NCBI GenBank assembly: GCA_964246015.1
Contig: CAXTPG010000011.1
Coordinates: 357 to 64,356, forward strand
Origin: an uncultured Acetobacteraceae bacterium
Lineage (GTDB): Bacteria > Pseudomonadota > Alphaproteobacteria > Acetobacterales > Acetobacteraceae
Length of the DNA: 64,000 bases
Direction of reading: 5' to 3'
In this document: piece after piece, positions 1,202 through 8,340 of the stretch
Numbering within the stretch: position 1 is the stretch's first letter
Layout: each line of letters starts with the position of its first letter
Program-made: the position numbers and the translations under genes
Notes under the pieces: model-generated
Databases searched by the model: none
Told to the model about the DNA's origin: nothing
The model's input: the letters and a program-made list of their open reading frames with translations, nothing else

Positions 1202-2479
1202 TCAGGTCTTGATCAGGCGAGCCGCGAAGAAGCCGTCGATGCTGCCCTGGGTGGGCCAGAGGCCGGGATGGGTGCGGAGGTGGCCGGCTTCGGTGCGGGC
1301 CTCGGGGATGGCGGCGAGTTCCTCGGGGGTGAAGGGATCGGGACGGAGGTTGTGGGCGGCGAGGGATTCGAGGCGGGTGGCGCCTTCCTCGGGCTGGAGG
1401 GAGCAGACGGCGTAGATGAGCCGGCCGCCGGGGCGGAGCATGGCGGCGGCGGCCGCGAGGAGGCGGTCCTGGCCGGCCGTGAGGTCGACGATGTCGCGGG
1501 GGCGCTTCAGGCGGAGGGCGTCGGGGTGGCGGCGGATGGTCCCGGTGGCGCTGCAGGGGGCGTCGAGCAGGACGGCGTCCATGGGCTGATCGGGGATCCA
1601 GGTGGCGGCGTCGGCCTGGATGACGGTCACTTCGAGCTGGAGGCGGGCGAGGTTGTCGTGGAGGCGGCGGAGACGTTCGGCGTCGCGCTCGACGGCGAAG
1701 ACCTGGGCGCCGGCGGTGGCGAGCTGCGCGGTCTTGCCGCCGGGTGCGGCGCAGAGGTCGGCGATGCGTTCGCCGGGCCGGGGGGCGAGGAGGCGGGCCG
1801 GGAGGGCGGCGGCGGCGTCCTGGACCCAGAAGGCGCCGTCCTCGAACCCGGGAATGTCCGCGACGCGGGTGCCGGGGGGGAGCCGGGCGGAGCCGGTGGG
1901 CAACAGCGTGGCGCCGGGCGGGAGCGGCGTGCCGGGGCGGAGGGTGAGGTCGAGGGGGGCCTCGTGCGCGTGAGCCTCGGCGATGATGCGGGCGTCCTTG
2001 CCCCAGCTGGTCCAAAGCCAGGGTGGGGTGTCGAGCCGGGGCGCATCCAGCGCTTCGAGGGCGGCGGGCCCGGCTTCGGAAACCCGGCGGAGGACGGCGT
2101 TCACCAGCCCGGCAAAAGGGGCGAGCTTGCGGTTGCGGGCGAGATCGACGGCGGTGCCGACGGCGGCATGGGCGGGGGTTTCCAGCAGGAGAAGGCCGGC
2201 GGCGCCCATGCGGAGGATGTGGCGGACGGGATCGGGCGGGGCGCGCGTGAGGAAGGGTTCGAGGACGGCGTCGAGGGAGCCGAGGCGGCGCAGGACGGCG
2301 GCGGCAAGGCGGTGTGCGGCGGCGCGGTCGCGGGGTTCGTTCCCGGTGGTCGCGGCGACGAGGCCTTCGTCGAGCGGGCGGTGGCGGTCGAGCACGGCGC
2401 AGAGGAGGTCGAAGGCGATTTCCCGGGTGGGGTCCCGGGCAGGGGGCTTTTGGGCGGGGAGCTTTGGCAGGTGGGTCAT
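1202..2479 (-). CDS. rsmB: 16S rRNA (cytosine-C5) methyltransferase, RsmB/Sun family
   Basis: 425-aa ORF. N-terminal NusB-like region, SAM motif DLCAAPGGKT, catalytic Cys motifs DAPCSATG and AVCSL, and DGFF near the C-terminus. Confidence 0.85.
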   Translation of the reverse strand: MTHLPKLPAQKPPARDPTREIAFDLLCAVLDRHRPLDEGLVAATTGNEPRDRAAAHRLAAAVLRRLGSLDAVLEPFLTRAPPDPVRHILRMGAAGLLLLETPAHAAVGTAVDLARNRKLAPFAGLVNAVLRRVSEAGPAALEALDAPRLDTPPWLWTSWGKDARIIAEAHAHEAPLDLTLRPGTPLPPGATLLPTGSARLPPGTRVADIPGFEDGAFWVQDAAAALPARLLAPRPGERIADLCAAPGGKTAQLATAGAQVFAVERDAERLRRLHDNLARLQLEVTVIQADAATWIPDQPMDAVLLDAPCSATGTIRRHPDALRLKRPRDIVDLTAGQDRLLAAAAAMLRPGGRLIYAVCSLQPEEGATRLESLAAHNLRPDPFTPEELAAIPEARTEAGHLRTHPGLWPTQGSIDGFFAARLIKT

Positions 2480-2529
2480 GCGGGGCGCTTCATGGCGCGG
2501 ATCGGGGGGGCGTGCTAGGGGCCGGGCGC

Positions 2530-4155
2530 ATGACGACCCTGCTCGAAAAGGTGGACGGCGTGCGGCGGCCGCGGCTGCTGCTGGTGGCGCTGTGCCTGGC
2601 GCTGTGGTTGCCGGGGTTCTTCACGTTGCCGCCAGGGGACCGGGACGAGAGCCGGTTCGTGCAGGCGACGAAGCAGATGCTGGAGACCGGGGACTTCGTC
2701 CGCATCCAGAACGGGACGGAGGCGCGGAACCGCAAGCCGATCGGGATCCACTGGATGCAGGCGCCGTTCGCGGCGGCGGCGCAGGCCGTGGGACTGGCGC
2801 GGGAGAACATGGTCTGGCCCTACCGGGTGCCATCGCTGCTGGGCGGGATCGTGGCGGTGCTGGCGTGCTTTGCCGTGGGCGAGCGGCTGGCGGGGCGGCG
2901 GGTGGCGCTGCTGGGGGCGGGGATGCTGGCTGCGTCCGTCGTGCTGGTGGTGGAGGTTCATATCGCCAAGACCGATGCGGCGCTGCTGGGGGCGACGACG
3001 GTGGCCATGGCGGTGCTGGCGCGGGCGTATCTTGATCCCCGGGGGATGACCCGGGGCGCGGCGGCCGGGTTCTGGCTGGCGATGGGGGTGGGGGTGCTGC
3101 TGAAGGGGCCGATCACGCCGATGGTGGCGGGGTTGGCCGTCGTGTCGCTGGTGGTGGCGGACCGGCGGGCGACGTGGCTGCGGAGCCTGCGGGCGGGCTG
3201 GGGCGTGCCGCTGATGCTGCTGGTGGTGGTCCCGTGGTTCGTCGCGATCGGGGTGGCGACGGGGGGGCGGTTCTTCGCGGATGCGGTCGGAGGGGATCTG
3301 GGGCGGAAGCTGACGTCGGGGGACGATGCGCATTGGGGGCCGCCGGGCCTGCACCTGGTGCTGCTGCCGTTCCTGCTGTTTCCGCTGGCGGCGGCATTGC
3401 CGGGTGGCGTCGCGCTGGCATGGCGGGAGCGCCGGGCGGCGCCGGTGCGGTTCCTGCTGGCATGGATCATCCCGGCCTGGCTCGTGTTCGAGGCGACGCC
3501 GACCAAGCTGCCGCATTACACGATGCCACTGTATCCGGCGGTGTTCGTGCTGCTGGCCTGGGGGGTGCTTGCCGGGGCGGGGGTTCGTTGGCGGTGGGCC
3601 GGGTCGCTGGTCGCGCTTGTGGGCGCGGTGGGGTTGGCGGCGGCGGGGATCGCGGCGCCCGTGTTCCTGCGGTTGGACTGGTGGCTGGGCGTGCCGGTGG
3701 CGGCCGCGGCGATGGCCGTCGGGTGGTTCGCGGTCCGGGGCTGGGCCGTGCGTGGTGCGGTGGCGGCGGTCGTGCTGGCGCCGCTGGCCTACGGGGCGGC
3801 GCTGGGGTGGGAGGCGCCGCGCCTGTGGCCGGTGTGGATCGCGCCGCGGGTGGTGGCGGCGCTGCCGCCGGGGCGCGTGGCGGCGCTGCCGCCGGGGCGT
3901 GTGGCCTCGGTGGGGTTCTCGGAACCGAGCCTGATGGTCCTTGCCGGGACCGAAACGCAGTGGCTGCTGGCGGCGGAGGGGGTGGCGGCGCTGGCGGACG
4001 GGTCGATCGACGTTCTGGTCGTGGGGGACCGGGATCTGGCGGCGGTGCGGGCGGGGCTGGCGGCGCGGGGGGTGACGGCGCGCGAGCGGGCGGTGGTGCC
4101 AGGCTATAACGTCTCGCGCGGGCGGGCGGTGGTGCTTACGGTCCTCACCCGCTGA
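2530..4155 (+). CDS. ArnT/PMT-like (GT39/GT83-type) polyprenyl-phosphate-sugar-dependent membrane glycosyltransferase
   Basis: Internal ATG at 2530 of ORF 2314..4155; the upstream part is Arg/Gly junk. Sequence MTTLLEKVDGVRRPRLLLVALCLALWLPGFFTLPPGDRDESRFVQATKQM. The first-loop DE motif and more than 10 hydrophobic segments are typical of the family. Confidence 0.8.
   Translation: MTTLLEKVDGVRRPRLLLVALCLALWLPGFFTLPPGDRDESRFVQATKQMLETGDFVRIQNGTEARNRKPIGIHWMQAPFAAAAQAVGLARENMVWPYRVPSLLGGIVAVLACFAVGERLAGRRVALLGAGMLAASVVLVVEVHIAKTDAALLGATTVAMAVLARAYLDPRGMTRGAAAGFWLAMGVGVLLKGPITPMVAGLAVVSLVVADRRATWLRSLRAGWGVPLMLLVVVPWFVAIGVATGGRFFADAVGGDLGRKLTSGDDAHWGPPGLHLVLLPFLLFPLAAALPGGVALAWRERRAAPVRFLLAWIIPAWLVFEATPTKLPHYTMPLYPAVFVLLAWGVLAGAGVRWRWAGSLVALVGAVGLAAAGIAAPVFLRLDWWLGVPVAAAAMAVGWFAVRGWAVRGAVAAVVLAPLAYGAALGWEAPRLWPVWIAPRVVAALPPGRVAALPPGRVASVGFSEPSLMVLAGTETQWLLAAEGVAALADGSIDVLVVGDRDLAAVRAGLAARGVTARERAVVPGYNVSRGRAVVLTVLTR
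3853..3904 (+). repeat. In-frame 24-bp tandem duplication (2 copies plus a partial third) inside the glycosyltransferase gene
   Basis: gtggcggcgctgccgccggggcgc (3853-3876) is repeated as gtggcggcgctgccgccggggcgt (3877-3900), followed by gtgg. Encodes VAALPPGR-VAALPPGR-VA. Confidence 0.9.
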
Positions 4156-4161
4156 GGGCGG

Positions 4162-7100
4162 TCACACGGCGAAGGCAATGCGGCCTTGCTGGCTTCCGAC
4201 GCTGGCGAAGTGGGCGAGGGGGTCGATGTTGGCGGCCCGGACGTCGCTATAGGCGGCGAAGTACTTGTTCGTGCTGAAATTGGCCGAGGGGTCGCGGCCC
4301 TCCCGCCAGCCAAGCGTCTCGTAGTGGGTGAGGGCGTCGAAGAAGTTGGCGGCGACGTCGGGGTTGCGGGCGTTGTAGTAGGCGGCGTCGAAGAGAGCGG
4401 CCTCGGGGGTCGAGTAGGCGTGGGCGGCGTGGACCGGGGTGGCGGCGTCCTCGGTTCCGCGAATGAACGAGAGGAGGGGGTCGGTCCCCGTGGTGTCGGG
4501 ATGGGCGGCCTGGTAGCGCGAGAGGGAGAACCACGGGCTGGGATCGCGTCCGCGGGTCCAGCCGAGGTTCTCGAAGTGGAGCAGGGGGTCGATCTTGCGG
4601 GACGCGACCTCGGGATTTTCGAGTTGGTAGTAGGTGGTGTCGAACCAGGGGTTGGGGTCGTAGCGGAGAGTCCAGCCGATGGTGTGATAGTGGGTTGCGG
4701 CGTCAAGGCCGGAGGCGGCGGCGTCGGGGTGCTGGGCGAAGTACCAGGCGCTGTCGACGAGGGGATCGTCGAAGCCGGTTGCGGGCTCGATGGCGCGGCC
4801 CTGGTCGCGTCCGGTCTGGATGTAGTGCTGCAGCGGATTGATGCCGGAGTCGCGGACGTCGGCGTTGGCGGTGAGGTAGGCGGAGGTGGAGAAGAGGGGC
4901 GAGGGGTCGCGGCCCTCGATCCATCCGATGGTCGCGTAGTGCAGGAGCGGATCGACTCCGGACGCGGCGACGTCGGGGTAGCGGTTGAGATAATAGGCGG
5001 TGTCGAAGAAGGCGGAGGGGTTGCGGTCCTCACGCCAGCCGAGGGTTTCGTAGTGGGTGAGCGGGTCGAAGTGGTTGGCGGGGACGTCGGGGTTGCGGGC
5101 GACGTAGTAGGCAGCGTCGAAGAGGGCTGCCTCGGGGTTGGAGTAGAGGTTGAGGCGGGCGGTCGGCGGATCCTCGTTGCTGGCGAGGAAGGCCGATAGG
5201 GGGTTGGTCCCGAAGGCGGTGGGGTGGGCGGCCTGCCATGCCTTGACCGAGAACCAGGGGCTCGGGTCCTGCCCGGTGCGCCAGCCGACCGCCTCGAAAT
5301 GCGTGAGGGGGTCCATGCCCGCGGCATAGAGGCCGGGATTCTGGAGCTGGTAGAAGGTTGTGTCGAACCAGGGGTTGGGGTCGTAGCGGAGGGTCCAGCC
5401 GGTGGTCTTGTAGTGGGCGGCGGCGGTCATTCCGCTGGCGGCGGCGTCGGGGTGGCGGGCGAAGTACCAGGCGCTGTCGACGAGCTCGTTTACGACGGAC
5501 GCGTGGTCGATCGCCGGCTGGATGGCCCGTCCCTGGGCACGGCCGGTTTCCAGGTAGTGCTGGAGCGGGTCTATCCCGGCGGCGCGGACGTCGGGGTTCT
5601 GGGCGAGGTAGTCGGCAACGGAGAACCGGGGCGACGGGTCGCGCCCCTGGGCCCAACCGGTCTGCTCGAAATGCTGGAGCGGGTTGATGCCCGAGGCGGC
5701 GACGTCGGGATTTTGGCTGAGGTACCAGCGCGTATCGAACCATGCGTTTGGATTGCGGCCCTCGCGCAATCCCCACGTGGTCCAGTGCTGCAGCGGGTCG
5801 ATTCCCGCGGCGCGCACGTCGGCGTTCTGGGCAAGGTAGAAGACCGGGTCGAAGTCGGGGAACTTGCTGGTGCTGAAAAGCGTGCCCGACCACGTGGTGC
5901 GACTGTAGTCGAGGGTCACGGACGGCGCGACAGGCACGTTGTCGAGCTGTGCCGAGCCGATGAACAGCGCGCCGGCCGTGGGCCCCTGCCTGTAGACGAT
6001 GTTGGTGGTGGCGATGGTCACGGCGTGGGCGCCGTTGCCCCACCAGCCCGTGAAGGTGAAGGTCTGGGTTCCCGCGCCGACGAGGGTCGTGACGACGCCG
6101 CTGCCGGCGATGGCGCCGTCGATCGTGACGGTGAACGCGACGTCGAGATCACCCTTCTGCTGCGCGAGGCGGAGGGTGAGCGTGTTGGGTCCCGGCGACA
6201 CGGGGCTGAACAGCGGCGGGGCAAGGGCGGCGGACCAGGGCGGCGTGGTGTCGAGGACCGGCGCCCCCGCGAGCGGCACGGTGGCCGCGGTGGCACCGAC
6301 CCCGATATAGGCCTGGCTGCCCGGCACGCCGCCGTAGAAGCGGTTGGCCAAGGCGGTCACGGGTGGGACGGCGCCCGATCCGTCGTCACCCACGACGAAG
6401 TAGGTGTAGGGGTGCCCGGGATTGTAGAGCCGCGTGACGAATGCGTTGCCGATCAGCTCGACGTCGCTGTTGCCGTAGGCGGGGCCCTCGCCGCCGACGT
6501 GGACCAGCAGGCCGTTCTCGGCGTCCGGTCCTTTTTCCAGCAGGTTGTTGCGAAGGGTGACGTTGCCGCCCTGGCCGATGTTGACCAGGAAGCTGGCTTG
6601 GACGCCCGGGCCGTCCCAGATCGCGTTGTCCTCGATGAGGGCGTTGTAGGCGCGCAGCGAGATCTCGTGGCCGGAGGTGGCGCCGTGGATGGAGGAGCGG
6701 CGGATGACCAGGCTGCCGATGGCGCCGATGGTGAGATTATGGGTACCCTTGGCCTCGTTGCCGTTGGGCCCGATCTCGGAATCGACGATGAGGATGGCGG
6801 TGTTCGGGTTGTCGTCGGCCAGGATGCCGATGTCGTTGCCGTGGAACCACGAGTTGACGATCGTGACGCGGCCGCCCTTGACCAGAATGCCGCCCTCGTG
6901 GCCGCCGTAGTTCGTGGCGCCCGTGAACTCGAGGTTGCGGAGGGTGGCGTCGGTGGTGATGACGAGGATGCCGTTGCTGGCGTCGAGCATGTTGGACTGG
7001 ACGAAGCGGGCGATACCGCCGACACCCTCGATGATCACCTTCTTGCTGACGGTGCCGAAGTCGTTGACGTAGGTGCCGGCCGCCACCTTGATGGTGTCCC

Positions 7101-8181
7101 CGTCGCGGGCGGACGCGAGGGCGGCGGAGAGCGTGGAGAACCGCCCCGTCGGCCCGACGGTCAGGACGCGGCCGGTGGGCGCGACCACCCCCTGATCGCC
7201 CCAATCCTGAAGGAAGGTGTCCTCGGGGACCGGCGTGAACACGGGGTCCGCCGAGCGGGGGGCCACGGCGGGCGCCTTCGACGTCAGGTCGAGGCTGGGC
7301 CGTTGGCTGAGGACGGTGTTCCCGGCCTGGACGACCGAGCCGAGCGAGATGTGGTTGGCCGCCCAGCCCCAGAGGCGGTTGCCGGTGAGGACGGCGGAGC
7401 CGTTGGTGGCGGCGTTGACGATCAGGTAGCCGTTCGGATTGTCGTTGATGATGGTGTTGTCGACGATGTTGAGGGCGGAGTTGGGATACGACGTCCCCTC
7501 CCCGCCATAATGGATGGCGATCCAGTTCTCGGTGTCGGGCCCCTTCTCGATGACGTTGCCCATGATGGTCGCGAGGCCGCCGTCGGGGATGTCGATGCTG
7601 TAGCTGCCGTTCCCGGTGTTGTCCTGGATGCGGTTGTTCAGAAGGGTGGTGTTGCGGGCGCGCGACTTGATCTCGTGCCCGACGACGGAGTCGTGGAAGT
7701 AGCTGTCGCGGACGGTGAGGGAGGCGATGGCGCCGATATAGAGGTTGTGGGTGAGGCCGTCGCCGGCGCCGTTGTGGCTGAACTCGGAGTTCTCGATGAG
7801 GATGGTGCCGTCGGCCCAGCCGTTGGCGAGGATGCCATCCTGGTTGTCCCAGAAGACACAGTCGCGCACGACGAGGTTGCCGAGGTCGTAGCGGATGCCG
7901 GCGCCGTTGCCGTCGCCCACCCGGCTACCGGTGAAACCGAAGCCCTCGATCGTCAGGTCCGCGTCGGCGACGATCAGGCCCTTGCCGTTCGACGGCTCCT
8001 TGGTCCCGGCGATGATCGCGCGTCCGCCGACGGACTTCAGGGTGATCTTGTGGGTGACCGTGAACGCGTCATCGACATAGGTGCCGGCCCGCACCAGCAC
8101 CGTATCGCCGTCGCGCGTGTTGCGGACGGCATCGGCAATGGTCGTGTATTGCTGGCCTGCGCCGACAGTGAGCGTCGTCAT
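4162..8181 (-). CDS. Giant (1339 aa) protein: two right-handed parallel beta-helix modules, a beta-sandwich-like spacer, and 14 C-terminal ~37-aa repeats; probably secreted or surface-located
   Basis: Single uninterrupted ORF. Two paralogous modules (aa ~1-300 and ~335-640) share TVG...Y.T...A....DGDT..V.AGTY, THNL.IGAI.SL..R.S..H....GHEI, and EKGPD.EN...H.GGEG. Gly/Asn/Ile-rich turns are typical of the pectate-lyase fold. The C-terminal repeat consensus is YY...NPDVaaaG.DPL.HY...GW.EGRDPS..F. No N-terminal signal peptide is evident. Confidence 0.85.
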   Translation of the reverse strand: MTTLTVGAGQQYTTIADAVRNTRDGDTVLVRAGTYVDDAFTVTHKITLKSVGGRAIIAGTKEPSNGKGLIVADADLTIEGFGFTGSRVGDGNGAGIRYDLGNLVVRDCVFWDNQDGILANGWADGTILIENSEFSHNGAGDGLTHNLYIGAIASLTVRDSYFHDSVVGHEIKSRARNTTLLNNRIQDNTGNGSYSIDIPDGGLATIMGNVIEKGPDTENWIAIHYGGEGTSYPNSALNIVDNTIINDNPNGYLIVNAATNGSAVLTGNRLWGWAANHISLGSVVQAGNTVLSQRPSLDLTSKAPAVAPRSADPVFTPVPEDTFLQDWGDQGVVAPTGRVLTVGPTGRFSTLSAALASARDGDTIKVAAGTYVNDFGTVSKKVIIEGVGGIARFVQSNMLDASNGILVITTDATLRNLEFTGATNYGGHEGGILVKGGRVTIVNSWFHGNDIGILADDNPNTAILIVDSEIGPNGNEAKGTHNLTIGAIGSLVIRRSSIHGATSGHEISLRAYNALIEDNAIWDGPGVQASFLVNIGQGGNVTLRNNLLEKGPDAENGLLVHVGGEGPAYGNSDVELIGNAFVTRLYNPGHPYTYFVVGDDGSGAVPPVTALANRFYGGVPGSQAYIGVGATAATVPLAGAPVLDTTPPWSAALAPPLFSPVSPGPNTLTLRLAQQKGDLDVAFTVTIDGAIAGSGVVTTLVGAGTQTFTFTGWWGNGAHAVTIATTNIVYRQGPTAGALFIGSAQLDNVPVAPSVTLDYSRTTWSGTLFSTSKFPDFDPVFYLAQNADVRAAGIDPLQHWTTWGLREGRNPNAWFDTRWYLSQNPDVAASGINPLQHFEQTGWAQGRDPSPRFSVADYLAQNPDVRAAGIDPLQHYLETGRAQGRAIQPAIDHASVVNELVDSAWYFARHPDAAASGMTAAAHYKTTGWTLRYDPNPWFDTTFYQLQNPGLYAAGMDPLTHFEAVGWRTGQDPSPWFSVKAWQAAHPTAFGTNPLSAFLASNEDPPTARLNLYSNPEAALFDAAYYVARNPDVPANHFDPLTHYETLGWREDRNPSAFFDTAYYLNRYPDVAASGVDPLLHYATIGWIEGRDPSPLFSTSAYLTANADVRDSGINPLQHYIQTGRDQGRAIEPATGFDDPLVDSAWYFAQHPDAAASGLDAATHYHTIGWTLRYDPNPWFDTTYYQLENPEVASRKIDPLLHFENLGWTRGRDPSPWFSLSRYQAAHPDTTGTDPLLSFIRGTEDAATPVHAAHAYSTPEAALFDAAYYNARNPDVAANFFDALTHYETLGWREGRDPSANFSTNKYFAAYSDVRAANIDPLAHFASVGSQQGRIAFAV
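4165..5853 (-). repeat. Coding tandem-repeat array (14 units of ~36-38 codons, organised 3+6+5 as a higher-order repeat)
   Basis: I counted the units in the translated ORF. Units 4-9 and 10-14 are colinear copies of each other (VDSAWYFA.HPDAAASG...HY.T.GWTLRYDPNPWFDTT.YQL.NP ... PEAALFDAAYY.ARNPDV.AN.FD.LTHYETLGWRE). Units 1-3 match the tail of that super-unit. Confidence 0.85.
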
Positions 8182-8340
8182 AGGATTGCAAAGTCTCCAT
8201 CAGAACTTCTACTGCCGGGTCTTATCCCATAGAAGCGTATGGAAGGCGACTAGCAGTTATGCGTTAATCCAAGTTAAATCGGTTAACCTTGTAATGAATC
8301 GTTACCAAAGATTTAGTGTTGTCCCGTTTGCTCCCGGCGG
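8182..8340 (-). promoter_or_regulatory. AT-rich upstream/promoter region of the giant-protein gene, with three GTTAA motifs about one helical turn apart
   Basis: This is the only clearly AT-rich stretch in the window. GTTAA occurs at 8263-8267, 8273-8277 and 8282-8286, which is 82-105 nt upstream of the start at 8181. Confidence 0.35.

What the first reader, a model, noticed from the sequence alone, without database searches (positions are those of the whole stretch)
4162..8181. 1339-aa protein without a signal peptide, containing duplicated beta-helix modules; the second module has a Lys-to-Leu change in a conserved GHEIKSRA motif
**Seen in sequence.** Two paralogous ~300-aa right-handed beta-helix modules share long motif series. 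A ~115-aa Gly/Thr-rich beta-sandwich-like segment follows, then the repeat array. Module 1 has THNLYIG...GHEIKSRA. Module 2 has THNLTIG...GHEISLRA.

There is no N-terminal signal peptide, no RTX GGxGxD repeats, and only one Cys. The gene lies tail-to-tail, 6 bp away, with an ArnT/PMT-like glycosyltransferase.

**Established knowledge.** This fold is used by polysaccharide lyases, epimerases and adhesins, many of which use basic catalytic residues.

**Inference.** This would be a non-classically secreted (T1SS-like?) polysaccharide-modifying or surface protein with one active and one degenerate module. It might be glycosylated by the neighbouring enzyme.
Basis: partly seen in the sequence, partly recalled or inferred. 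Interest (0 to 1): 0.6.

Follow-up and report, generated by a model that had tools for sequence, protein, structure and literature searches.

The report
Exoenzyme-like double beta-helix protein with unnamed repeats
This gene encodes an uncharacterised sugar-polymer-cutting type of enzyme with one working and one decayed copy of its core, and a tail of 14 copies of a very common but unnamed helical repeat that probably helps it leave or stay on the cell.

Summary
The Lys of GHEIKSRA is replaced by Ser in module 2; the Leu replaces the following Ser.

- **Module 1 (residues 1-300)** belongs to a large uncharacterised beta-helix family. N92, R97, H145, Y148, H169, K172, S173, R174, Y194 and D197 are invariant in 63 aligned homologues.
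- **Module 2** has lost these residues in nearly all two-module relatives. It is an old non-catalytic partner, as in two-domain PL6 alginate lyases, the best fold match. There is no sequence membership in PL6, PL9, GH28 or AlgE.
- **After module 2** come a CBM60-like sandwich and 14 repeats of 38 aa. Each repeat is predicted as three short helices. They match no Pfam, NCBIfam or PDB entry, yet occur in about 31,800 protein clusters. This scan has noted the repeat before on other DNA.

**New here:** the repeat sits N-terminally on cytoplasmic-type glycosyltransferases. It sits at the extreme C-terminus of Cys-free, acidic proteins without signal peptides, including M10 protease+RTX and GH16+CBM60.

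**Most likely:** a type-I-secreted, surface-retained polysaccharide lyase- or epimerase-like enzyme (about 0.55).

Glycosylation by the neighbouring PMT-like enzyme is not supported.

The parts
4162..8181 (-). Whole CDS, 1339 aa plus TGA stop. No signal peptide, 1 Cys, pI 4.94.
7282..8181 (-). Module 1 (residues 1-300): right-handed parallel beta-helix, the presumed catalytic module. The residues invariant across the family lie on or just before the first strand of successive coils: N92/R97, N113, H145/Y148, H169/K172/R174, Y194/D197.
   Evidence: Pfam Beta_helix E = 4e-10. AF2 pLDDT above 90. Invariant columns. Strand register read from the DSSP string.
7657..7680 (-). GHEIKSRA motif (residues 168-175). 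K172 is the candidate catalytic base.
   Evidence: In the 120 listed proteins (the query and 119 homologues), a regex for the motif with Lys, GH[EQD][ILVM]KSRA, matches nearly all. G168, H169, K172, S173, R174 and A175 are invariant in 63 of 63 aligned sequences.
7171..7281 (-). Pro/Ala-rich linker (residues 301-337) between the two beta-helices.
   Evidence: No regular secondary structure and pLDDT 75-81 in the AF2 model. Sequence.
6262..7170 (-). Module 2 (residues 338-640): paralogous beta-helix, 35 % identical to module 1, with the putative catalytic residues lost.
6649..6672 (-). GHEISLRA (residues 504-511): degenerate counterpart of the motif (K to S, S to L).
5866..6186 (-). CBM60-like beta-sandwich (residues 666-772).
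   Evidence: Eight strands in the AF2 model. Pfam CBM60 E = 3e-4, 21.5 bits, below the 28.2 cut-off. Several homologues carry precomputed CBM60 (PF16841) hits.
4165..5856 (-). Array of 14 repeats of 38 aa (residues 776-1339), consensus FDxxxYLxxNPDVxxAGxDPLxHYxxxGxxEGRxPS. It forms five sub-blocks of 3+3+3+3+2 repeats. Each repeat is predicted as three short helices.
   Evidence: No Pfam or NCBIfam hit. No PDB fold match.
4165..4395 (-). Terminal di-repeat (residues 1263-1339) ending ...GSQQGRIAFAV-COOH. This is the most conserved part of the array.
   Evidence: More than half of the invariant columns of A2 lie in the last 76 residues. 36 of 38 unrelated proteins with a C-terminal array stop 0-3 aa after EGRxxFxx.
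2530..4155 (+). Context only: convergent PMT/PMT_2 (GT-C) glycosyltransferase. Its start is probably the MTTLLEK codon at about 2530.
   Evidence: Pairing with the target is seen in about 10 related genomes but is not obligatory.

Best explanation
The gene encodes an extracellular enzyme, most likely exported by type I secretion, that acts on a polysaccharide of the cell's own envelope or matrix.

- **Module 1** is the catalytic beta-helix. Its substrate groove is lined by the invariant ladder R97, Y148, K172 and D197, flanked by H145/N146, H169/E170 and R174. K172 is the likely proton-abstracting base, which would make the enzyme a beta-elimination lyase or a C5-epimerase on an acidic sugar.
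- **Module 2** is an anciently inactivated copy. It probably shapes or extends the substrate groove, as the non-catalytic C-terminal beta-helix does in two-domain PL6 alginate lyases.
- **The CBM60-like sandwich** adds glycan binding.
- **The C-terminal array** of 38-aa three-helix repeats takes the place that RTX/T1SS tails occupy in orthologues. It probably keeps the enzyme on the cell-surface glycan, and its terminal di-repeat may carry the export signal.

Shown here: the anatomy, the conservation pattern, the fold, the domain swaps and the compositional signature. Inferred: the chemistry, the substrate, the export route and the role of the repeats.
For: **Fold.** The AF2 model has pLDDT 92.4. 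The top Foldseek hits are two-domain PL6 alginate lyases (7o7t, 5gkq, 7dmk, 8bwk; E 2e-9 to 1e-7). They are followed by AlgE4, Pel9A and RbmB.

**PL6 parallel.** In PL6 the N-terminal domain is catalytic. The C-terminal domain is inactive but shapes the active site (PMC12992946).

**Conservation.** Module 1 has an invariant Lys/Arg/Tyr/His/Asp cluster, which is lost in module 2.

**Extracellular character of the family.**
- Single-module relatives carry up to 13 GGxGxD motifs and serralysin-C domains.
- Own-genome paralogue C35 has an RTX-like tail. The two C38 paralogues have Sec signal peptides.
- Orthologues at the same syntenic site swap the repeat array for tails ending PYLYIHAN. Paralogue P0019, in the same genome as P0013 but at another site, ends YLLIYNPGV. 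These tails resemble those of this genome's RTX proteins.

**Composition.** The target has 1 Cys in 1339 aa (genome mean 1.09 %) and pI 4.94. The genome's RTX proteins have 0-0.09 % Cys and pI 4.2-4.4. Its repeat-bearing glycosyltransferases have 0.8-1.95 % Cys and pI 6-7.

**Repeat family.** Among the 150 best repeat-family hits:

| Array position | n | Median Cys (non-repeat part) | Median pI |
|---|---|---|---|
| Ends at the C-terminus | 38 | 0.0 % | 4.43 |
| N-terminal | 63 | 1.37 % | 6.3 |

Mann-Whitney p = 1e-16 for Cys and 2e-14 for pI.

Partners of C-terminal arrays include Peptidase_M10+RTX, GH16+CBM60, alkaline phosphatase+RTX, CAP+RTX, subtilase, VCBS, cadherin and PATR.

**Secretion machinery.** A T1SS ABC and HlyD pair lies on contig C40; the HlyD protein scores above the curated cut-off.
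Against: - There is no RTX nonapeptide in this protein and no T1SS gene beside it or beside the sampled relatives.
- The same repeat is most often fused to enzymes of cytoplasmic type: GT2, GT4, WbsX, RgpF, methyltransferase and sulfotransferase-like. The array can therefore fold and work inside the cell. That sits uneasily with the usual view that T1SS substrates stay unfolded until exported.
- The motif ...EGRxAFAV also occurs internally, before Pro-rich linkers, in L035. It is a domain boundary and not necessarily a signal.
- Chemistry is unassigned.
- A hydrolase using D197 and E228 is not excluded.
Confidence: 0.55

Rival explanations
1. A cytoplasmic or inner-membrane-associated enzyme. 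The repeat array docks the beta-helix enzyme onto the same cytoplasmic polysaccharide-assembly machinery as the repeat-bearing glycosyltransferases. There it trims, epimerises or terminates a polymer built on the cytoplasmic face, as in an ABC-transporter-dependent pathway.
For: - There is no signal peptide and no RTX motif.
- The repeat lies at the N-termini of five multidomain glycosyltransferases in this genome and mostly on cytoplasmic-type enzymes overall.
- In L038 and L042 the orthologue lies directly downstream of a repeat-WbsX-GT4-GT2 gene on the same strand.
Against: - The beta-helix family otherwise carries RTX tails or Sec signals.
- The target's near-absence of Cys and its acidic pI match exoproteins, not the cytoplasmic repeat-bearing glycosyltransferases.
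- C-terminal arrays are systematically joined to exoprotein-type passengers.
Confidence: 0.2
2. A non-enzymatic surface adhesin or matrix scaffold. Both beta-helices serve as rigid glycan- or surface-binding stalks, as in PfbA-type or autotransporter passenger adhesins, and the conserved residues form a binding site rather than a catalytic one.
For: Foldseek also finds the adhesin PfbA and phage tailspikes. The architecture includes CBM-like and repeat modules.
Against: - Ten polar residues are invariant across 63 sequences that are only 31-57 % identical, including a Lys/Arg/His/Tyr cluster on one face. This is more typical of catalysis.
- Module 2 has lost exactly these residues while keeping the fold.
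- Tailspikes in the hit list are themselves depolymerases.
Confidence: 0.12
3. A secreted glycoprotein substrate of the adjacent PMT-like GT-C enzyme. The GT-C enzyme O-glycosylates the Thr/Ser-rich parts after export.
For: The tail-to-tail pairing with a PMT/PMT_2 gene recurs in about 10 related Acetobacteraceae genomes. GT-C enzymes act on the periplasmic side (established knowledge).
Against: - The genes are convergent, so they are not co-transcribed.
- The PMT-RsmB pair is kept in three genomes whose beta-helix orthologue is elsewhere.
- Orthologues in L035-L038 and L042 have no PMT neighbour.
- A T1SS substrate bypasses the periplasm, where a GT-C enzyme would act.
Confidence: 0.05

Closest known systems
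Two-domain PL6 alginate lyases (AlyGC 5GKD/5GKQ, Patl3640 7O7T, BcAlyPL6 7DMK, BoPL6)
   Same: Both have two consecutive right-handed beta-helices. The N-terminal one is catalytic and the C-terminal one is non-catalytic but retained. This is the best Foldseek match (E about 2e-9). A Lys base with a nearby Arg is the catalytic theme (PMC12992946).
   Different: - No sequence relationship was detected: no Pfam Chondroitinas_B hit and PDB profile E = 0.29.
- The PL6 pattern of Ca-binding ExE...K followed one coil later by R-H is absent.
- The relative domain orientation differs (TM 0.2-0.26, rmsd about 18 A).
- PL6 two-domain enzymes are not known to me to carry long C-terminal repeat arrays (from my own knowledge).
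Azotobacter vinelandii AlgE mannuronan C5-epimerases (A-modules plus RTX R-modules)
   Same: Both are beta-helix catalytic modules acting on a secreted acidic polysaccharide (AlgE4 A-module is a Foldseek hit, E = 4e-5). From my own knowledge, AlgE enzymes lack a signal peptide, some carry duplicated A-modules, and export is by type I secretion.
   Different: The catalytic motif DPH[DE] is absent. The C-terminal modules here are helical 38-aa repeats, not RTX beta-rolls.
Rhizobium leguminosarum PlyA/PlyB glycanases and Rap proteins (PrsDE T1SS substrates)
   Same: These enzymes process the cell's own EPS. They are secreted by a T1SS and carry a C-terminal polysaccharide-binding (Ra/CHDL) domain that ties their activity to the cell surface (PMC9298526). 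This is the functional model proposed here.
   Different: The catalytic and binding domains are unrelated. A tblastn search of module 1 against the plasmid collection (which I assumed includes the R. leguminosarum plasmids) returned no Rhizobium record at E <= 1e-10.
The unnamed 38-residue NPDV...EGR helical repeat noted earlier in this scan on glycosyltransferases (e1-4345239, e1-4866817, e1-1395149)
   Same: It appears to be the same repeat consensus. I independently found no Pfam or NCBIfam model and no PDB fold match, and a three-helix prediction per repeat.
   Different: Here the array is C-terminal, on an exoenzyme-type protein. This report adds the split between N-terminal arrays (cytoplasmic type) and C-terminal arrays (Cys-free, acidic).

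Membership tests
CAZy PL6 (Pfam PF14592 Chondroitinas_B) | Detectable sequence similarity to PL6 members. | tested here: not met
   No PF14592 hit at E <= 10 for module 1 or module 2. A PDB profile search gives only E = 0.29 to BcAlyPL6, and against module 2.
CAZy PL6 (Pfam PF14592 Chondroitinas_B) | Right-handed beta-helix fold, optionally with a second non-catalytic beta-helix. | tested here: met
   Foldseek E 2e-9 to 1e-7 to 7o7t, 5gkq, 7dmk and 8bwk.
CAZy PL6 (Pfam PF14592 Chondroitinas_B) | Catalytic Lys, with Arg-His one coil later, and an Asn/Glu/Glu Ca2+ site (BoPL6 N201, E233, E235, K240, R261, H262). | tested here: not met
   No ExE(3-5)K and no RH dipeptide in residues 1-665. Here Lys and Arg lie on the same strand (K172, R174). 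Structural superposition was not possible.
CAZy PL9 (Pel9A-like, PF22842) | Match to the Pel9A-like beta-helix profile. | tested here: inconclusive
   A precomputed hit is listed for P0001, and a faint one for an orthologue. My hmmscan gives nothing at E <= 10. Foldseek to 1ru4: E = 5e-4, TM 0.45 normalised to the target.
AlgE/AlgG mannuronan C5-epimerases | Catalytic DPH[DE] motif in the beta-helix. | tested here: not met
   The regex is absent. Fold similarity only (2pyh, E = 4e-5).
GH28 polygalacturonases | NTD, DD, GHG and RIK motifs. | tested here: not met
   No RIK and no DD...GHG pattern. No Pfam Glyco_hydro_28 hit.
RTX type I secretion substrates | GGxGxDxUx nonapeptide repeats near the C-terminus. 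| tested here: not met
   Zero GGxGxD motifs. No HemolysinCabind hit.
Type I secretion substrates in general | No N-terminal signal peptide, acidic pI, very low Cys, and a T1SS ABC/MFP encoded in the genome. | tested here: met
   ABC and HlyD pair on C40; HlyD scores 340 bits against a cut-off of 209.
Type I secretion substrates in general | A functional, uncleaved C-terminal secretion signal recognised by the ABC transporter. | not testable with these tools
   Only indirect evidence: the terminal di-repeat is conserved and always lies at the very C-terminus.
CBM60 | Score above the Pfam gathering threshold. | tested here: inconclusive
   21.5 bits against a cut-off of 28.2, E = 3e-4 on the isolated segment. 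A beta-sandwich is present in the model.
Unnamed 38-aa NPDV...EGR repeat family | Tandem copies matching FDxxxYLxxNPDVxxAGxDPLxHYxxxGxxEGRxP. | tested here: met
   12 copies by HMM plus 2 degenerate ones. The profile finds 31,841 representative proteins at E <= 1e-3.

The most novel reading that the evidence does not exclude
The 38-aa helical repeat array may be a previously unrecognised module used on both sides of the envelope.

- On cytoplasmic glycosyltransferases, methyltransferases and sulfotransferases it would tether the enzyme to a nascent glycan or its assembly machine.
- As a C-terminal array with a conserved terminal di-repeat (...DPLLHYVxxGQAEGRxAFAV-COOH), it would define a new non-RTX class of type-I-secreted exoproteins. 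These include proteases, GH16 glycanases, phosphatases and this beta-helix enzyme. The array would serve as a secretion and/or surface-retention domain that recognises the same glycan.
Probability: 0.3. Interest if true: 0.8.

Novelty: new variant of a known kind. Interest (0 to 1): 0.55.

Why it matters
Three things would follow if the reading is right.

1. **A new candidate enzyme family.** The family has an invariant Lys/Arg/Tyr/His site and is widespread in Acetobacteraceae: 38 of 80 sampled genera of the window's own family had a match. It occurs beyond that family too. It has no characterised member, no solved relative by sequence and no CAZy-type assignment. It is therefore a candidate new polysaccharide lyase or epimerase family.

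2. **Convergence with PL6.** The active-plus-decayed beta-helix pair arose independently of two-domain PL6 lyases. That would be a case of convergent architecture.

3. **A testable role for the repeat.** The tail repeat occurs in about 31,800 protein clusters but has no name, structure or function. The sharp compositional split between proteins with N-terminal arrays and those with C-terminal arrays gives a concrete hypothesis for its role in envelope glycan biology. It may also point to an unrecognised class of secretion substrates.

Tried and rejected
**Searches that found no family assignment**
- PDB sequence searches with the protein and with a 63-sequence profile found nothing meaningful (best hits: phage head protein and L24, E >= 0.035).
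- NCBIfam gave only a sub-threshold NosD match (47 bits against a cut-off of 300).
- A Foldseek search with the repeat-array model found nothing (best E = 3).
- A literature search for 'NPDV' repeats found nothing relevant.

**Link to a proven T1SS substrate**
- I tested whether the PrsDE-secreted 'beta-helix protein' of R. leguminosarum pRL9 belongs to this family. The plasmid tblastn returned no Rhizobium record at E <= 1e-10, so no experimentally secreted member could be tied in.

**Gene-neighbourhood tests**
- No T1SS genes lie next to the target, next to 80 related loci, or next to three C-terminal-array proteins. This is uninformative, because T1SS substrates are often unlinked.

**Ideas rejected**
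- ...AFAV-COOH as a dedicated secretion tag by itself. The same motif ends internal di-repeat units before Pro-rich linkers in L035.
- A prophage tailspike. The neighbours are housekeeping genes: RsmB, SDR, Ada-linked oxygenase and MFS.
- Obligatory coupling to the PMT-like glycosyltransferase.

**Not possible with these tools**
- Model coordinates are not exposed, so I could not superpose K172 on catalytic lysines of PL6, PL9 or RbmB.
- The promoter and terminator scan gave nothing useful.

Full report
**1. Observation**

The minus-strand ORF 4162-8181 has the codon bias of a real gene (GC3 0.92) and encodes 1339 aa. Position 8181 is the first start codon after the upstream stop. The product begins MTTLTVGAGQQY, exactly like its homologues (MATLTVG...), so the beta-helix cap starts at residue 1 and there is no signal peptide.

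Residues 1-330 and 340-661 are paralogous: 35 % identity, E = 1e-51. The quoted motifs are present: GHEIKSRA at 168-175 and GHEISLRA at 504-511. In register, however, K172 aligns with S508 and S173 with L509. The Lys is replaced by Ser, not Leu.

There is one Cys and no GGxGxD motif. A PMT/PMT_2 GT-C gene ends 6 bp from the stop, on the other strand.

**2. Anatomy**

Pfam recognises only the generic Beta_helix family in module 1, plus a sub-threshold CBM60 match at 668-747. NCBIfam gives only a far sub-threshold NosD match.

An AlphaFold2 model of residues 1-790, built on 63 sequences, has mean pLDDT 92.4 and pTM 0.74. It shows:
- two right-handed three-stranded beta-helices (about 3-286 and 339-634), joined by a Pro/Ala-rich linker;
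- an eight-strand sandwich at 666-772.

The rest of the protein (776-1339) is 14 copies of a 38-aa repeat, FDxxxYLxxNPDVxxAGxDPLxHYxxxGxxEGRxPS. A second model (pLDDT 83) folds each repeat as three short helices. The repeats are grouped into five blocks (3+3+3+3+2) separated by low-confidence linkers.

**3. The beta-helix family and the degenerate module**

A search of 5.8 billion proteins returned 293 relatives among the candidates scored.

- *Motif conservation.* Nearly all of the 120 listed proteins carry the motif with Lys, matched as GH[EQD][ILVM]KSRA.
- *Invariant residues.* In a 63-sequence alignment (31-57 % identity to the query), N92, G93, R97, N113, H145, Y148, H169, K172, S173, R174, Y194, D197 and E228 are invariant.
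- *Position on the fold.* Read against the model's strand register, R97, Y148, K172 and D197 lie on the first strand of successive coils. H145/N146, H169/E170 and S193/Y194 lie in the turns just before those strands. That places them on one sheet of the helix. From my own knowledge, such a sheet forms the substrate groove in pectate lyases; which sheet this is, and which way the side chains point, could not be checked without coordinates.
- *Module 2.* The equivalents of N92, R97, Y148, K172, R174 and Y194 are variable. The K172 equivalent is S, N, V, A or T among the five commonest residues; Lys is not among them. The inactivation is therefore old and maintained, not a recent lesion.
- *Own-genome paralogues*. 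C35 is a single module with an RTX-like tail. C38 holds two adjacent genes with Sec signal peptides, one with GHHIKSRA and the next degenerate. C39 has two modules, both lacking the Lys.

**4. Fold relatives and chemistry**

The best Foldseek hits are the two-domain PL6 alginate lyases (E 2e-9 to 1e-7). AlgE4, Lam55A, Pel9A, RbmB, phage tailspikes and PfbA follow.

In two-domain PL6 enzymes the N-terminal helix holds the Lys/Arg/His and Ca2+ site. The C-terminal helix is inactive but shapes the site and binds substrate (PMC12992946). That is the same logic as here.

Membership fails by sequence:
- no PF14592, GH28 or epimerase profile hit;
- no significant PDB sequence or profile hit;
- the PL6, GH28 and AlgE signature motifs are absent.

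An invariant Lys/Arg/Tyr/His cluster, together with tolerance of E170Q (GHQIKSRA in many RTX-type members), favours base-catalysed chemistry on an acidic sugar, meaning a lyase or an epimerase. This is an inference, and a hydrolase using D197 and E228 is not excluded.

**5. Where does it act?**

Evidence for an extracellular site:
- *Relatives.* They commonly carry RTX repeats and serralysin-C domains, or Sec signals.
- *Domain swaps.* At the same syntenic site (beta-helix gene, then PMT, then RsmB), orthologues carry one of three things. L028, L029, L031, L032 and L040 carry the repeat array. L027 and L034 carry an RTX-type tail ending PYLYIHAN. L033 carries neither.
- *Shared tails.* Tails of this type end the RTX proteins of this genome...YLYLYNPGV...YLYIYNPGV. 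P0013 (repeat tail) and P0019 (tail ...YLLIYNPGV) are paralogues in one genome.
- *Composition.* The target has 1 Cys in 1339 aa against a genome mean of 1.09 %, and pI 4.94. That resembles the RTX proteins (0-0.09 % Cys, pI 4.2-4.4). It does not resemble the repeat-bearing glycosyltransferases (0.8-1.95 % Cys, pI 6-7).
- *Machinery.* A T1SS ABC and HlyD pair is present on contig C40.

Evidence against: no RTX repeats in this protein, no linked T1SS genes, and the cytoplasmic associations of the repeat described next.

**6. The repeat family**

The repeat has no Pfam or NCBIfam model and no PDB fold match. A profile of the di-repeat finds 31,841 representative proteins at E <= 1e-3 and 6,010 at E <= 1e-30, among 1.84 billion.

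In this genome it heads five multidomain glycosyltransferases: WbsX-GT4-GT2, GT2-WbsX, GT2-GT4 and two more.

Among the 150 best hits, arrays are N-terminal in 64, internal in 41 and C-terminal in 42. A crude hydrophobicity scan flagged 2 of the 150, and neither N-terminus looks like a Sec signal.

Partners fall into two kinds:
- GT2, GT4, RgpF, GT61, methyltransferase and sulfotransferase-like enzymes;
- Peptidase_M10+RTX (P0164), GH16+CBM60 (P0173, P0327), RTX (P0193), alkaline phosphatase+RTX, CAP+RTX, subtilase, lipase, VCBS, cadherin, PATR and Ig-like domains.

The two kinds separate cleanly by array position:

| Array position | n | Median Cys (non-repeat part) | Median pI |
|---|---|---|---|
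| Ends at the C-terminus | 38 | 0.0 % | 4.43 |
| N-terminal | 63 | 1.37 % | 6.3 |

Mann-Whitney p = 1e-16 for Cys and 2e-14 for pI.

Of the 38 proteins with C-terminal arrays, 36 stop 0-3 residues after a strongly conserved ...DPLLHYVxxGQAEGRxAFAV. In the orthologue alignment, more than half of the invariant columns fall in the last 76 residues.

A caution applies. The same ending occurs internally before Pro-rich linkers in L035. It marks a domain end, not necessarily a signal.

Earlier notes of this scan had already flagged this repeat on glycosyltransferases in other genomes. The split by position and composition is new here.

**7. Neighbourhood**

The flanking genes are housekeeping: SDR, RsmB, an oxygenase of Pfam family Oxygenase-NA (PF09859), MFS, LysE and GGT.

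The convergent PMT_2 gene recurs next to orthologues in about 10 Acetobacteraceae genomes. However, the PMT-RsmB pair persists alone in three genomes whose orthologue lies elsewhere. The proposed glycosylation link is therefore unsupported.

More suggestive contexts:
- In L038 and L042 the orthologue directly follows a repeat-WbsX-GT4-GT2 gene on the same strand, as an isolated two-gene insert between housekeeping genes.
- A GH16+CBM60+repeat protein sits beside a Wza/GT4/GT2 EPS cluster.

**8. Distribution**

The beta-helix module was found in 38 of 80 sampled genera of the window's own family. That family is probably Acetobacteraceae, judging from the record titles of the related loci. The module also occurs in Reyranella, Phenylobacterium, Deinococcus, Massilia and others. 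It is annotated only as 'right-handed parallel beta-helix repeat-containing' or 'hypothetical'. The full two-module form with a repeat tail is rarer and is mostly seen in uncultured Acetobacteraceae.

**9. Verdict**

The reading of one active and one degenerate module is supported, and the degeneracy is ancient.

The most likely function is a secreted, surface-retained polysaccharide lyase- or epimerase-like enzyme, probably a T1SS substrate. Its C-terminal helical repeat array replaces the RTX tail of its orthologues (confidence about 0.55). The main rival is a cytoplasmic partner of the repeat-bearing glycosyltransferases (about 0.2).

This is an uncharacterised family with a convergent PL6-like architecture, joined to an unnamed but very large repeat family. 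That is moderately interesting. It would become more so if the C-terminal arrays prove to define a new class of secretion or retention domain.

Noticed in passing
own genome outside the window: C185:432-4193(+), C100:3999-6761(+), C2:88754-91369(+), C14:8835-12077(+), C61:6024-9044(-): Five large multidomain glycosyltransferases carry 2-4 copies of the same 38-aa repeat at their N-termini. Three were scanned with Pfam: WbsX-GT4-GT2, GT2-WbsX and GT2-GT4. C14 and C61 look like glycosyltransferases from their sequence but were not scanned. All five have cytoplasmic-type composition (0.8-1.95 % Cys, pI 6-7).
   Followed up: partly
L038:3782-11222 and L042:3057-11237: In two Acetobacteraceae MAGs a repeat-WbsX-GT4-GT2 gene of about 1250 aa is followed on the same strand by the two-module beta-helix-repeat orthologue. 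In L038 the pair lies between ECH/MAPEG upstream and a Cys/Met-metabolism gene downstream; L042's flanks were not annotated. This is a possible functional pair.
   Followed up: partly
own genome C38:29702-31624(+): Two adjacent genes each encode a single beta-helix module with a Sec signal peptide. The first keeps the motif (GHHIKSRA) and the second has lost it. This is a split-gene, Sec-exported version of the active-plus-degenerate pair.
   Followed up: no
own genome C39:15315-17777(-): An 820-aa paralogue has two beta-helix modules that both lack the Lys (GGAEVRSRA, AAAEIRSRA), followed by CBM-like segments. It has no Cys.
   Followed up: no
own genome C40:19117-24644(-): The only clear T1SS pair found: a 763-aa ABC protein and a 464-aa HlyD-family protein (340 bits, above the curated cut-off), followed by a 592-aa ORF of unknown role. 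Candidate substrates elsewhere in the genome end ...YLYLYNPGV or ...YLYIYNPGV (C27:34799-38101, C66:8267-13480).
   Followed up: partly
P0164, P0173, P0327 (L112:10001-12877), P0354 (L110:10001-13156): These exoenzyme-type proteins have C-terminal arrays of the same repeat: serralysin-like M10+RTX, GH16+CBM60 (one beside a Wza/GT4/GT2 EPS cluster) and alkaline phosphatase+RTX in Methylobacterium.
   Followed up: partly
window 2314-2530: The longest ORF of the PMT-like gene overlaps RsmB (1202-2479) by 166 bp, and its first 72 residues are Arg/Gly-rich. The real start is probably the MTTLLEK codon near 2530, giving 541 aa, like the 543-545 aa orthologues.
   Followed up: partly
window 8182-8340: The stretch upstream of the start codon is strikingly AT-rich for this 70 % GC genome and contains repeated GTTAA/TTAAC-like words. 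The sigma-70 consensus scan found nothing there. Another first-reader note also flags it.
   Followed up: no
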